A stretch of 64,000 nt of DNA from Pseudomonadota bacterium (lineage in GTDB: Bacteria > Desulfobacterota > Desulfobacteria > Desulfobacterales > JBDRRP01): NCBI GenBank assembly GCA_043825735.1, contig JBDRRP010000087.1:1-64000 (forward strand), read 5' to 3'. Positions within the stretch are counted from its first letter, which is position 1. Each line of letters starts with the position of its first letter. A program made the position numbers. This document shows positions 48,001 through 54,000 of this stretch, piece by piece.

Positions 48001-51000
48001 TCGCAAAATCAAGAATGAAAAACGCCTTGATGCGCCGGTCAAAGCCTTTATGAGCAAATCCGTTGTGACCATCAGCCCAGGCAGAAGCCCTATGTACGCG
48101 GCCCGACTGATGGTCAAGCACGACATCGGCCGTCTTCCTGTGGTCGAAGACGGCAAACTCATCGGTATTATCACCCGCTCTGATGCCATGATGTATTTTT
48201 ACGACCTGCTGCCGGACTGATAAGAGAAGGGTTCGAGGGGCCAAGGGGTCAAGGATTCAAGTGAAACACCAAACAACATCACAACGGATAGCCATGACAG
48301 ATTATCCCAATGAGAAGCTTCGTCGGCTGATGGAAAAGGGCGTGCGGATACCGACTCCCGAGAGTGTGGACATCGGCGATGAGGTGTCGGTGGATCGGAT
48401 TTCAGGGCAGGGCGTAACGATTCACGCCGGCAGCCGCATCCGGGGCGCCGGCACCCTGATCATGGCCGGTGCGCGCATCGGGGAGGAGGCGCCGGCCACT
48501 GTGGACAACTGCCACATCGGTCCGGAGGTGCAGCTCAAGGGCGGTTTTTATTCAGGATCCGTATTTTTGAAAGGCGCGGCTGTCGGGTCATCGGCGCACA
48601 TCCGCCCCGGGACCATTTTTGAGGAAAAGGCCTCGGCCGCGCATGCTGTCGGCCTCAAGCAGAGCATTCTTTTTCCTTATGTAACTATCGGAAGTTTAAT
48701 TAATTTTTGTGATATCTTGATGTCCGGTGGCACCGGCCCGAAACACCACAGCGAGGTGGGCAGTTCTTATATTCATTTCAATTTTACGCCCAATCAGGAC
48801 AAGGCCACGGCCTCGCTGCTCGGCGACGTTCCCCAGGGGGTCATGCTGGACCAGGATCCCATTTTTCTGGGAGGGCAGGGCGGTCTGGTAGGCCCCTGCA
48901 ACCTGGCCTTCGGCACCGTCATCGCCGCCGGCACCATTTACCGCAAGGATGAAAGCCGCCCGGGTCGACTTCTCACCGCCGCGACCGGCCGTGGCGGCAG
49001 CATCCCCTACACGGCCGGCATTTACCGCAGCGTCAAACGGGTGGTGGCCAACAACATGAACTATCTGGCCAATCTCATAGCCCTGGGGCAGTGGTACCGC
49101 CACGCTCGAAAACGGTTCATCGGTGCTGAGTTCAGCGAAGCGCTCTGGGAAGGGCTGATCGCTGCACTGGATGCAGATACGGCGGCTCATGTCAGACAGT
49201 TCGAGGGGTTTGTGGCTAAACTGACGGGTTCCGTTGATAAACTTAGACAGGGAATCATCACGACGGCAGGGGACCACCTCATTGCCCAACACGAAGCGGT
49301 GATCGACCGGTGGCCAGAAATGTTATCAATAATAAATGAGCTGCGTGCCGCCCCCGGCGACGTGACGCTTCAGGAACGGTTTTTGGAAGCCCTGTCCCGG
49401 CGTATTGCGCGATCGGAAGGGGACTACCTGAGCGCTATTCACGCCTTGGACGAACAAGAAAAGGAATCGGGACGGCGATGGCTGGCGGGAATCGTCGACC
49501 AAGTGGTGGCACCCCTTGAAGCGCTGCTCCCCGCCCTTTTCGGGTCTCCGAAAAAACAAATCTGACGGCTAATTAAGATTGATGAAACCGTAAAAAGTGA
49601 TTTTTAACCACAGAGACCGCAGAGGAACGCAGAGAATATTATGAATAATTAATAAGTTATCTCTGCGCTCTCTGCGTCCTCTGTGGTGATTTCAGACTTT
49701 TTACGAGTTTGTCAAGATTCGAACCACGAAGTTCACGAAGGACACGAAGATATTATAATAGCTCATTTTCTTTAGGTTTTCTTCGTGCACTTCGTGATCT
49801 TCGTGGTTAAACCTTTTTATCAGCGCCAATACATTGAGGAGATCCATGGGGGTATTATTCGGGACGGACGGCATTCGCGGAAAAGCCAATACGCATCCCA
49901 TGGTACCGGAGACCGCCCTTCGGGTGGGAAGGGCCTTGGTGCGGCATTTTGCCACCAATGGGAGCACTGGGCCCGTGGTGGTCGGCAGAGATACCCGGTT
50001 GTCCGGTGAAATGCTTGAGCATGCCTTAATGTCCGGCATTTGTGCAGAAGGCGCCGAAGTTCTTGCCGCAGGCGTCATCCCCACGCCGGCGGTTGCCGCT
50101 CTGTGCCGCAAACACGCGGCCATTGCGGGAGTGGTCATTTCAGCCTCCCACAATCCGTACACCGATAATGGCATCAAGCTGTTTCGGGGAGACGGGTTCA
50201 AGCTCGGCGACGAAGAAGAAGCAGCCATCGAGGCCATGGTGCTGATGCCCTATGCCGGAGATATCCCCGGAACGGACCGGGTGGGCCGCGTGCGAAGGTT
50301 AAAGACGGCGGAAAACGACTACCTGGAAGCCATGATGGCCGCACTGCCGAGCGGATTTTCACTCAAAGGGTGCCGGATTATTCTGGATTGCGCCAACGGG
50401 GCGTCCTACCACGTGGCGCCGGAAATGTTCCGCCGACTGGGTGCCGATGTCATTTCGCTGAACAACCATCCCGACGGGGTCAATATCAACAAGGATTGCG
50501 GCTCGGAACACCTGGAAGGCATCTGTTCCGCCGTAAAAACCTACAAGGCTGACATCGGACTGGCCTTCGACGGCGATGCCGACCGGCTTCTGGCAGTCGA
50601 TGAGACCGGGGCTGCGGCCACCGGCGATCAGCTCATTGCCATATTTGCCGATTATCTGAATAAAAACGGTAGATTGGATAACAATCGGGTGGTGACCACC
50701 GTCATGAGCAACCTGGGGCTCAAGCAAGCCCTTCAGACCATGGGCATCATCCACACCACCAGCGCCGTGGGAGACCGCCACGTTATGACGGAAATGCGCC
50801 AAAGCGGCGCGGTGCTTGGCGGCGAGGACTCCGGCCACATCATTTTTCTCAGGCACCAGACCACGGGCGATGGGCTGCTGTCGGCATTGAAACTGTGTGA
50901 GATCCTTAAGGACTTCGGGAAGCCGTTTTCCCTTCTGAAACGGGTCATGACGGTATTTCCGCAGAAACTCGTAGCCGTGGCGGTGAGGGAAACGCCGGAT

Positions 51001-54000
51001 TTAACAGGTATCGACAGCATCCGGGCGGCCATATCGCTGGTGGAACGGAACCTGGGCGACAGCGGGCGGGTTCTGGTACGCTATTCCGGCACCCAGCCGG
51101 TATGCCGGGTCATGGTGGAAGGCCCCGATGCTGCTGCCACCGAAGAAGGGTGCCGGGTCATCGCAGATGCGATAGATCAGGCGATCGGCATGTCGGGTGA
51201 AACGGAGAAGGCTGAAAACCGAAATCACCGCAGAGGCGCAGAGAACGCAGAGATAACTCATTGATAATTAGAAAATATACTCTGCGGACCTCTGCGGCCT
51301 CTGTGGTGCGAAATCACTTATTGCGCCTTGGACAAAAAAAAGGCCTTCGGCAAGGGCTGCCGAAGGCCTTAAATAGCTGATATTTTATATATTTTACTTG
51401 CGATCGCCAAAGATTCTGAGCAGCATCAGGAACAGGTTGATGAAGTCCAGATAGAGCGTCAGGGCGCCGATCAGCGCGCCTTTGCGGATCATGGCACCGG
51501 TGGCGTCAACGGGTTGGCTCATGGCCATGTATTTGATTTTTTGCGTGTCATAGGCGGTCAGTCCCACAAAAATGACGACGCCGATATAACTGATGATCAT
51601 GTGCATGGCCGAGCTTTTCATGAACATATTGACCACCGATGCGATGATGATGCCGATCAGTCCCATGAACATGAACTGTCCCATGGACGTGAGGTCTTTT
51701 TTGGTCATCCATCCGTAGGCGCTGGTCGCCAGAAATGTGGCTGAACAGATAAAAAAGACCGACGTGATGGACGCGCTCGTGTAAATCAGAAAAATGGACG
51801 ACAGCGTGGCCCCGTTGAGGGCCGAGTAGGCTATAAACAATGCCGTTGCAGTGCTGGCCTGCATTTTGTTCACGCGGGCGCTGAGGGTGAACACCATGGC
51901 CAGTTCAGCGATGATCAGCCCGTAAAACAGAATCGTTGGCTGAAGCCGGTTGCCCACCACCTGAAAGAGCATGCTGAGCAGCGTCGGGCTGTTGGCAAAA
52001 AAATAGGCGGTGAAACCGGTGAGCGCCAATCCGATGGCCATCCAGTTGTAAACGCTTCGGACAAAGCTGTTGACCCTGATCTGGGACTGGGCCTGTGTGC
52101 CCTGAAACGGTGCGGTCTGCATTTTGAACCTCCTGTGCATGTGCTTTACGGGTAAAAATGAATGTTTTGTCGCGAATAAGATAACACATGATGGTTTTGA
52201 ATCAAGGCAAATCGGACGATCGATAAACAGATTTAAATTCGCCCCGATATGGTATAAGTCCTTTCACTGGCTAATGAAACGCGACAGATCGGCGAGGTAT
52301 GCACGATGAAACCTCTGGAACTATACGAAGAGCTTAAACAGGTGGCCGAGAAACTGGATATCACGGTGAACGAGCAAAATTTTCGAACCACCGGTATAGC
52401 CGTTAAAAGCGGACTGTGCAAGGTCAGGGGCAAATATCAATACATCATGAACAAGCACAACAGCATCAACAAAAAGATCGAACTGCTGGCTGAATGCATC
52501 AATGCATTTGCTCACGAAAATGTCTACGTGATGCCCGCCGTGCGCGATTACCTTAAAACCCACGATAGCGCGGAGGAAGACGAGGGGAATGATTAAGGGG
52601 CGTGCACCGGTATTAAAGGTAGGAGAAACAGGGATTTACGGCACCCCTATATAAGTTTACATAATATATCTTATCAGACTTTTTAGGTATTCAGATTTTC
52701 CATGGCAATTCCAGATATCACCGACGCTCCCCGAACGATTCTCAGCGTTTCCGAACTCACTCGGCGTATCAAGAGTCTCCTTGAGGGGGCCTTCGAATTT
52801 GTCTGGATCACCGGGGAGATATCCAACCATCGGATTCCCACCTCTGGGCACCATTATTTTACGCTGAAAGACAAAGAGGCTCAGATTTCCGCAGTAATGT
52901 TCCGGGGCGCTGCCCGGTCATTGACTTTTTCTCCGGATGACGGTGTGCGAATCACGGGCATGGGGCGAGTCAGTGTCTATCCACCAAGAGGCAACTACCA
53001 GATTATTCTAGAATATATGGTCCCAGACGGTATAGGGGCGCTCCAACTGGCTTTTGAACAACTGAAAAGTCGCTTGGCAGCAGAAGGTCTTTTTAACACT
53101 GAACGCAAGCGCCCCCTGCCCCTTCTACCCAGGCATGTGACCCTGGTGACTTCGCCCAGCGGCGCCGTGGTCCATGATTTCATAAACATTGTCAACCGTC
53201 GTTTCGCCAATCTGCCCATCACCGTGGTGCCGGTGAAAGTTCAGGGCGATGGCGCTGCGCTCGAGATCGCCGCGGCGCTGGGGTTTATCAACCGCCGGGT
53301 TGCCACCGATGTCATCGTCATCTGCCGCGGCGGAGGCTCTCTGGAAGACCTTCAGGCATTTAACACCGAAGTCGTGGCCCGCGCTGTTTTTGACAGCCGT
53401 ATCCCAGTAGTTTCTGCCGTTGGTCACGAAACCGACTACACCATTGCCGATTTCACGGCAGATGTGAGGGCACCGACACCGTCGGCCGCCGCTGAAATAA
53501 TCGTCCCGGTGAAGACCGAGTTGGATAACACACTGAGACAAACCCGGTTGTCGTTGGAACGGCAGATACGTCATCGCCTGGAGCAGCACAGAAGGCAATT
53601 GAACGCGCTGTTCAGGCATCTGGGAAATCCTCGACGCCATATCATCGATCTCAGGCTGCATCTGGATGATATGACCGGCCGTGTGGTCCGTTCCGTGGCC
53701 GGAATGATCCGCAGGCAGCGCGAGAAACTCCAATGGAGAAGCCGTCAACTCGGCGTTTCAAGACTTCAGATCCGGCTCACAGAACATAATCAATCGCTTT
53801 ATGATTATAATCTCAACTTGCTTAAAAACATCAATAATCTATTAATCAGCCGCAGACAAAAAATCCAAGCGACTGCAGGCATGCTCACTGCCCTGGATCC
53901 AACTGCCGTTCTCCAGCGTGGCTACAGCATCGCCCGCAATCTTAAGAATGGTCGCATCGTTCGAAATGCCGCCACGCTTTCGGTCGGCGACGGCGTCGAA

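What a model noticed while it worked through the whole genome (the two positions that open the first line are those of the whole stretch)
48294..51264. Remodelled UDP-GlcNAc pathway of Desulfobacterales: GlmU split into two distant genes and a 1,255-aa GlmS with a leader [...]
The genome has no full-length GlmU: g00681 (C19:5588-6340, after atpC) is only the 250-aa uridyltransferase half, and the unannotated 423-aa beta-helix protein g03486 before glmM is the candidate acetyltransferase. Its only GlmS (g04818, C121:86435-90202) is twice normal length, with a ~50-aa leader before the CG motif, a ~180-aa insert and a ~330-aa C-terminal extension. This layout holds across the order.
Evidence so far: Swiss-Prot hits. 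In 31 order genomes TIGR01173 GlmU passes its cut-off in 0; 23 match the N-half only. g03486 is in 26 of 31, next to glmM in 19 of 26 loci, and its best PDB matches are the GlmU acetyltransferase region, E 0.001-0.009. TIGR01135 passes its cut-off in 1 of 31; 26 have a 1,175-1,950-aa frame instead. Alignment shows the conserved leader, L-x-C-G-x-A-G-I-V and C-terminal part. Searches 133, 134, 136 found no report.
(Added by a program. Inside this text positions count along the whole contig: contig position 1 is position 1 of the stretch shown here. "Call 12" and the like, gene names such as g00115 and contig names such as C1 are that model's own, and its searches are not shown. The text may have been shortened before it was handed on; [...] marks where a part breaks off. 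The agent that wrote the report below was given it as the finding of a first reader that could run no searches.)

Follow-up and report, generated by a model that had tools for sequence, protein, structure and literature searches.

The report
Stand-alone replacement for GlmU's acetylating half
These bacteria most likely make their cell-wall sugar with a separate, mislabelled enzyme, derived from the acetylating half of GlmU but lacking its usual catalytic histidine, and in nearly all carriers examined (including Cutibacterium avidum) the old half is cut off or decayed; their first pathway enzyme, GlmS, also carries a leader that is probably cut off to switch it on.

Summary
Observation confirmed, interpretation refined. 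Window gene 48294-49565 (423 aa) descends from GlmU's acetyltransferase half (profile E 2e-11; best structural matches are GlmU; predicted trimer). The catalytic His363 position is Ser, and a ~170-aa helical domain is added. It is not order-specific. Across Desulfobacterota and Propionibacteriaceae, carriers have truncated or decayed GlmU acetyltransferase sites: 24 of 26 carrier GlmUs examined fail the six-residue test, whereas 48 of 50 non-carriers pass. It sits upstream of glmM and occurs fused to GlmM or to the GlmU N-half. So this looks like repeated displacement by a mobile GlcN-1-P acetyltransferase rather than a local split. Databases name it 'pyrophosphorylase' or 'GlmU'. The long GlmS keeps nearly all catalytic motifs and is the only GlmS found in most order genomes (long form 58 of 61, canonical 1 of 61). 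The long form is widespread (Acidimicrobiia, Planctomycetota and others). The leader is what is lineage-specific: it is protein-coding, and each of at least three losses restores Met-Cys, which points to a PurF-like cleaved propeptide. Split GlmU is in print; this family and the leader were not found in my searches. No activity was tested.

The parts
48294..49565 (+). Stand-alone GlmU-derived left-handed beta-helix protein (P0001, 423 aa): helix 7-15, beta-helix ~17-220, hairpin 225-238, added helical domain 247-416; predicted glucosamine-1-phosphate N-acetyltransferase
48594..48953 (+). Codons ~101-220: remodelled active-site coils. Kept: R104, K122, N163, K170 (= E. coli R333, K351, N386, K392). 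Changed: S134, N137, E154, G120, G194 (= H363, Y366, N377, E349, S405). Family-conserved C139, D140, H117, H152, H161
49846..51264 (+). glmM, phosphoglucosamine mutase (472 aa), makes the predicted substrate GlcN-1-P; conserved downstream neighbour
46922..48220 (+). DHH/DHHA1/CBS protein upstream (neighbour only; not shown to belong to the pathway)

Best explanation
The window gene encodes a homotrimeric glucosamine-1-phosphate N-acetyltransferase that does the job of GlmU's C-terminal half. Route: long GlmS (Fru-6-P to GlcN-6-P), GlmM (to GlcN-1-P), this enzyme (to GlcNAc-1-P, with acetyl-CoA), then the stand-alone GlmU N-half or, in some genomes, a NagU-type uridyltransferase (to UDP-GlcNAc). 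SHOWN: descent from the GlmU C-half, changed active-site residues, gene context, fusions, and decay of the old site in carriers. INFERRED: the reaction and substrate; phosphate binding by R104/K122/K170; the amine positioned by N163; a Glu154/Ser134/Asn137 constellation taking the place of the His general base. The family moves between phyla, often with glmM, and the resident GlmU acetyltransferase then decays. The long GlmS is a working GlcN-6-P synthase. Its Desulfobacterota leader is most likely a propeptide removed to free Cys52 (about 0.8 that it is removed; about 0.55 that the cut is autocatalytic as in PurF).
For: Homology: TIGR01173 238-427, E 2e-11; hhalign to E. coli GlmU C-half P 95%; the first 24 Foldseek rows listed are all GlmU; VIA Z 16.7 (rmsd 3.7, 182 aligned), 16.1 and 15.4 for GlmU vs 13.6 for LpxD. 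Trimer model of residues 1-280: 0.92 vs best control 0.00, runs agree in at least 91% of contacts, pLDDT at least 89 (mark reached by 20/30 solved homo-oligomers and 1/23 single chains; likeness to solved GlmU trimers may explain the pass); residues 116-118, 134-135, 137, 154, 156-158 lie in the interface. Phylum, 151 genomes: full-length GlmU in 1/23 carriers vs 87/128 non-carriers; that one carrier has K351 changed to T. In one genus two carriers have GlmU ending at profile 345/357 and two non-carriers have it whole. Propionibacteriaceae, 81 genomes: 21 carriers, all scoring below all 58 non-carriers with a single full match. Six acetyltransferase-site residues all kept in 1/25 carriers vs 48/50 non-carriers examined; uridyltransferase R18/K25 kept in 25/25 carriers; carrier state needs 7 changes on a quick tree, at least 2 forced. 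glmM directly downstream in 61/71 and 43/69 informative loci. Fusions to GlmM (914 aa) and to the GlmU N-half (748-751 aa). Closed genome G042 has the family plus PF01704 but no GlmU N-half. GlmS: motifs mapped; model matches E. coli GlmS Z 39, rmsd 5.9, 589 aligned; codon before Cys never a start codon in leader forms, and the -2 position uses many Leu/Phe/Ile codons; 6/51 leaderless forms all start ATG-Cys, 4 changes on the tree, at least 3 forced; PurF precedent (PMC7056826 passages).
Against: No activity tested. The His whose equivalent is required in M. tuberculosis GlmU (H374A inactive; PMC4619583 passages) is Ser in 139/140 relatives, and no His is invariant (H117 122/136, H152 136/146, H161 137/148). 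One Myxococcales carrier (G292) keeps an intact GlmU site and one Propionibacteriaceae carrier (G229) passes the six-residue test. 24/128 phylum non-carriers also have truncated GlmU and 8/61 order genomes show no family member even with a profile, so GlmU decay does not require this family. One fusion type is to a GalK-like kinase, unrelated to the pathway as far as I can tell. Kin are not independent. GlmS: the AF2 model is low-confidence around Cys52; the residue before Cys varies, unlike a fixed cleavage motif; E. coli T76, H77, Y28 and S303 positions differ.
Confidence: 0.78

Rival explanations
1. The family acetylates glucosamine-6-phosphate (eukaryote-like order) and the co-travelling GlmM then converts GlcNAc-6-P to GlcNAc-1-P.
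For: Gene order acetyltransferase-then-glmM is kept across phyla, with a GlmM fusion; sugar-site positions Y366 and N377 are changed to N137 and E154.
Against: GlmM passes the GlmM equivalog cut-off with ordinary motifs; the three basic positions are unchanged; several Actinomycetota carriers, including C. avidum L228, have no glmM match within 8 kb, so no special mutase is needed nearby.
Confidence: 0.11
2. It is a different acyltransferase or a non-catalytic beta-helix partner; GlmU decays in carriers for a linked but separate reason (another gene, or GlcNAc salvage).
For: Catalytic His and its Glu partner position are lost; truncated GlmU also occurs without the family in 24/128 genomes; G292 has both.
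Against: Near-invariant interface residues at 37-45% overall identity; decay is confined to the acetyltransferase half and tracks the family across several branches; stand-alone in C. avidum without glm neighbours; an LbH N-acetyltransferase can work without its His (ApmA H135A; PMC7885111 passages).
Confidence: 0.08
3. It is a UDP-GlcNAc pyrophosphorylase, as databases name it.
For: Names given by NCBI, UniRef and JGI; 15/61 order genomes show no GlmU N-half at 1e-40.
Against: No nucleotidyltransferase domain by Pfam, NCBIfam or fold; carriers keep the GlmU N-half with R18/K25 or have PF01704.
Confidence: 0.02
4. GlmS leader alternatives: (a) retained, the enzyme working with a blocked Cys amine or with free ammonia; (b) a basic amphipathic membrane or partner tag removed by a separate protease; (c) start mis-call.
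For: No fixed residue before Cys; leader has 6 K/R and no D/E; AF2 builds two short leader strands at pLDDT 60-70.
Against: Glutaminase residues R26, R73, H86, N98, G99, D123 are kept; losses of the leader land exactly on ATG-Cys; N-terminal Cys is required in E. coli GlmS (PMC11822699 and PMC10087520 passages); (c) is excluded by codon usage.
Confidence: 0.4

Closest known systems
GlmU C-terminal acetyltransferase domain (TIGR01173; PDB 1hm0, 4aa7, 2oi6)
   Same: Linker helix plus left-handed beta-helix plus tail, predicted trimer, R333/K351/N386/K392 positions, link to glmM.
   Different: Stand-alone; about 20-26% identity; H363, Y366, N377, E349, S405 positions changed; ~170-aa C-terminal helical domain; scores 43 bits against a 366.85 cut-off.
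Truncated or separately encoded GlmU domains (Fong et al. 2026, 10.64898/2026.06.23.733835 section 15; Capnocytophaga GlmU, PMC4358021)
   Same: Monofunctional uridyltransferase; two activities on separate genes; NagU pairing.
   Different: Those reports describe ordinary C-halves or postulate an 'unidentified acetyltransferase'; no 'Desulfo' hit in the main text of the former. This family is a candidate for that gap in some lineages only.
ApmA and other LbH N-acetyltransferases (QdtC, WlbB)
   Same: Trimeric LbH fold acetylating a sugar amine; His dispensable in ApmA.
   Different: Lower structural scores (Z 11.5-12.8); other substrates.
GlmS/GFAT (TIGR01135)
   Same: Class II glutaminase plus two SIS domains and the Lys C-tail motif.
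   Different: ~170-aa helical insert, ~120-aa helical insert before the tail, ~205-aa extra C-terminal domain, 30-70-aa leader.
PurF with propeptide (B. subtilis, eukaryotes)
   Same: Class II amidotransferase made with residues before the catalytic Cys; both leader and leaderless forms exist.
   Different: Different enzyme; the leader here is longer, basic, with its own motif; cleavage untested.

Membership tests
Bifunctional GlmU (TIGR01173) | Both domains in one chain, score over cut-off | tested here: not met
   43 and 274 bits for the two proteins vs 366.85
GlmU acetyltransferase domain | LbH fold with linker helix and tail | tested here: met
GlmU acetyltransferase domain | Homotrimer with sites between subunits | tested here: met
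   Model only: 0.92 vs control 0.00; may reflect likeness to solved trimers
GlmU acetyltransferase domain | Catalytic His (E. coli 363 / Mtb 374; the equivalence is recalled) | tested here: not met
   Ser in 139/140
GlmU acetyltransferase domain | Basic and Asn substrate residues R333, K351, N386, K392 (roles recalled) | tested here: met
   134/135, 136/137, 145/147, 146/147
GlmU acetyltransferase domain | Acetyl transfer to GlcN-1-P | not testable with these tools
   inferred from displacement pattern
UDP-GlcNAc pyrophosphorylase (database name) | Nucleotidyltransferase domain | tested here: not met
   all 423 residues are accounted for by beta-helix and helices in the model
GlmS (TIGR01135) | Score over cut-off | tested here: not met
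   243.8 vs 418.05 bits
GlmS (TIGR01135) | Glutaminase and isomerase motifs and fold | tested here: met
   motifs mapped, four positions differ; Z 39 to 4amv
GlmS (TIGR01135) | Cys directly after the initiator Met | tested here: not met
   Cys52; met only in 6/51 Desulfobacterota-type forms and in most other phyla
Ntn amidotransferase with cleaved propeptide (PurF type) | Autocatalytic cleavage before Cys | not testable with these tools
   indirect only

The most novel reading that the evidence does not exclude
A mobile, His-independent GlcN-1-P acetyltransferase with its own chemistry (a Glu base, or an acetyl-Cys139 intermediate) has repeatedly displaced the supposedly universal GlmU activity, including in Cutibacterium; and Desulfobacterota GlmS is a zymogen whose self-cleaved leader gates entry into cell-wall precursor synthesis, the first propeptide on a bacterial GlmS that I could find.
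Probability: 0.3. Interest if true: 0.82.

Novelty: new variant of a known kind. Interest (0 to 1): 0.64.

Why it matters
GlmU is treated as near-universal and as a drug target. A 2026 preprint notes bacteria with only the uridyltransferase half and calls the acetyltransferase unidentified. This names a testable candidate family (355 clusters at 50% identity with E up to 1e-30) that is misnamed in databases, corrects pathway reconstructions for a whole order of sulfate reducers, and predicts that Cutibacterium avidum and some relatives depend on an enzyme whose site differs from the one GlmU inhibitors were built against. It offers a natural case of an LbH N-acetyltransferase without the canonical His, and a second class II amidotransferase with an apparent propeptide.

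Tried and rejected
Start mis-call for the GlmS leader: rejected by codons. Long GlmS as order-specific: rejected. 'His moved one coil up' (H117): attractive in close relatives (120/120) but only 122/136 in distant ones, so not adopted. G161's 869-codon frame is not a fusion. More divergent family members in 52 genomes lacking a hit: none found. Long GlmS in 29 genomes of G291's class: none, and that search had no positive control. The ~205-aa GlmS C-terminal domain: no convincing Pfam or PDB sequence match, Atlas leads at or below 0.80; it was not folded alone, so its fold is untested. Fisher tests are not relied on (kin not independent). Earlier findings near the window: none. Literature searches showed no report of this family, of the long GlmS or of its leader; most subscription papers are outside the library and PMC6011181 was not held. 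Expression data were not examined.
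Full report
Observation. The window holds a 423-aa ORF at 48294-49565 followed by glmM. A whole-genome TIGR01173 search finds no match over the cut-off: the best is the 250-aa N-half on C19, directly behind atpC as in E. coli, and the window gene covers profile 236-427 at E 2.9e-11. The only near-full GlmS match is the 1,255-aa frame on C121. In 61 order genomes: full GlmU 0, N-half only 46, none at 1e-40 in 15; window family 53, 51 of them strong; long GlmS 58; canonical GlmS 1.

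What the window protein is. All 11 NCBIfam hits are GlmU models. The AF2 model (pLDDT 87.7) has a helix at 7-15, a beta-helix to about 220, a hairpin and a helical domain at 247-416. The first 24 Foldseek rows listed are GlmU; the exhaustive structural search ranks GlmU at Z 16.7, 16.1 and 15.4, ahead of LpxD at 13.6; the helical domain was barely tested there. Residues 1-280 model as a trimer (0.92, best control 0.00; contacts agree at least 91%, pLDDT at least 89; the mark was reached by 20 of 30 solved homo-oligomers and 1 of 23 single chains, and likeness to GlmU may explain it), with conserved residues in the interface.

The active site is rewired. Alignment to E. coli GlmU maps R104, K122, N163, K170 on R333, K351, N386, K392, but S134, N137, E154, G120, G194 on H363, Y366, N377, E349, S405. 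Among 150 distant representatives (of 355 at E up to 1e-30) S134 is kept in 139 of 140 rows with a residue, N137 139/140, C139 137/141, D140 138/141, E154 144/147; no His is invariant. The roles of the E. coli residues are recalled; that H374A removes activity in M. tuberculosis GlmU I read in passages of PMC4619583. ApmA still acetylates without its His (passages of PMC7885111).

Function from genomes. In 151 phylum genomes the family is in 23; full-length GlmU is in 1 of these and in 87 of the other 128 (90 pass the cut-off, two of them truncated). Outside the order the carriers' GlmU ends anywhere from profile 236 to 357, which looks like progressive decay. The family also occurs in Actinomycetota, Myxococcales, Syntrophales, Planctomycetota and Kiritimatiellae records. 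In the family of C. avidum ATCC 25577 (81 genomes) 21 are carriers; all score at most 514.5 bits and all 58 non-carriers with one full match at least 516.2 (one split and one missing match set aside). Six acetyltransferase-site residues are all kept in 1 of 25 carriers (21 of that family, 3 other Actinomycetota, G181) and in 48 of 50 non-carriers examined (the 30 best and 20 lowest scoring of 58; one has an internal stop, one was not parsed); R18 and K25 are kept in 25 of 25 carriers. A quick tree of GlmU residues 1-300 needs 7 changes of carrier state, at least 2 forced. Four further carriers from other groups with a GlmU match: three truncated, one (G292) intact; a fifth had no match. glmM follows the gene in 61 of 71 and 43 of 69 loci with enough downstream DNA (of 80 and 79), long glmS in 4 of the 69. 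Six longer homologs are fusions: one to GlmM, four to a GlmU N-half plus a stump of old beta-helix, one to a GalK-like kinase. G042, a closed genome, pairs the family with PF01704 and has no GlmU N-half. Together this says the protein supplies the acetyl step, not the uridylyl step its database names imply. Against: G292 and G229; 24 non-carriers with truncated GlmU and 8 order genomes without a member; no assay.

Long GlmS. Glutaminase motifs (C52, R232, R344, H357, N379, G380, D406) and isomerase motifs (S673-Q-S675, E810, K814, E817, H833, K1044) map on E. coli GlmS; Y28, T76, H77 and S303 positions differ. The model of residues 23-1222 (pLDDT 78.9) matches E. coli GlmS at Z 39 through the C-tail, with helical inserts at about 74-228 and 919-1041 and an alpha/beta domain after the tail. 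In the phylum 12 of 151 genomes show the long form's score range, 11 of them family carriers (for G094, G095, G127 judged from E-values only), while 12 carriers have ordinary GlmS, so the two changes are separable. A motif scan gave 120 stretches, 80 fetched; 62 yielded closed frames over 900 aa from the Cys and matched the C-domain profile; most are Actinomycetota or Planctomycetota and begin Met-Cys. In 4 of 5 such genomes tested it is the only near-full GlmS.

The leader. It reads as a variable basic stretch followed by a conserved aromatic-Gly-Arg ... Pro ... hydrophobic-Pro motif ending at Cys. The codon before Cys is never a start codon in leader forms and the -2 position uses many Leu, Phe and Ile codons, so it is conserved as protein. 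Of 51 Desulfobacterota-type sequences 6 lack it (I fetched several because their frames were short, so this is not a rate); all 6 begin ATG-Cys with an in-frame stop 2-16 codons upstream and need 4 changes on a FastTree, at least 3 forced. In one search it appears only in Desulfobacterota rows and one Planctomycetota row; two Actinomycetota rows flagged by my pattern are wrong Cys picks by eye. GlmS needs an N-terminal Cys (passages of PMC11822699 and PMC10087520) and many PurF enzymes get theirs by autocatalytic propeptide removal (passages of PMC7056826). Removal is the best reading; self-cleavage is inferred.

Comparison with print. Fong et al. 2026 (abstract, passages and all of section 15) describe truncated and separately encoded GlmU domains and an unidentified acetyltransferase; its supplements are closed and may list carriers. 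PMC4358021 and PMC7725333 (passages) describe monofunctional or missing GlmU halves. PMC9140057 passages gave nothing on propeptides. Searches (listings only for papers not named above) showed no report of this family or the leader.

Verdict. Real and more general than first read: a new variant of a known kind. It works like GlmU's acetyltransferase (0.78) but fails membership on the catalytic His. The long GlmS is widespread; its Desulfobacterota leader is probably a propeptide. Interest 0.64.

Noticed in passing
G069, G071, G072, G074, G085, G086, G107, G108, G110, G118, G119, G139, G140, G142, G148, G149, G169, G170, G172, G178, G179, G186, G198, G199: 24 phylum genomes have GlmU ending at profile 236-354 and no member of this family even by profile: a second, unknown replacement or GlcNAc salvage.
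   Followed up: partly
L210 (G041), L211 (G042): PF01704 (NagU/UAP-like) uridyltransferase in two order genomes that lack the GlmU N-half; G005 (100% complete) shows neither.
   Followed up: partly
P0411 cluster (14 members): GalK-like GHMP kinase fused in front of this family; meaning unclear.
   Followed up: no
window 49600-49815; L001 5400-5470: By eye, two imperfect inverted-repeat pairs between the gene and glmM; a similar repeat follows the GlmU N-half gene on C19.
   Followed up: no
L369 / L371 (G292): A Myxococcales GlmS in an 878-codon frame with Met-Cys start and inserts unlike those of the 1,150-1,250-aa form.
   Followed up: no
G067, G104, G136, G166, G195: One family shows only a C-half GlmU match at E up to 1e-50 (profile from 204-271 to ~450), next to glmS.
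   Followed up: no
L424: One Planctomycetota long GlmS carries the Desulfobacterota-type leader and C-domain; possible transfer or mis-binning.
   Followed up: no
window 46922-48220: DHH-DHHA1-CBS protein matching only residues 1-427 of the 880-position A-adding tRNA nucleotidyltransferase model.
   Followed up: no
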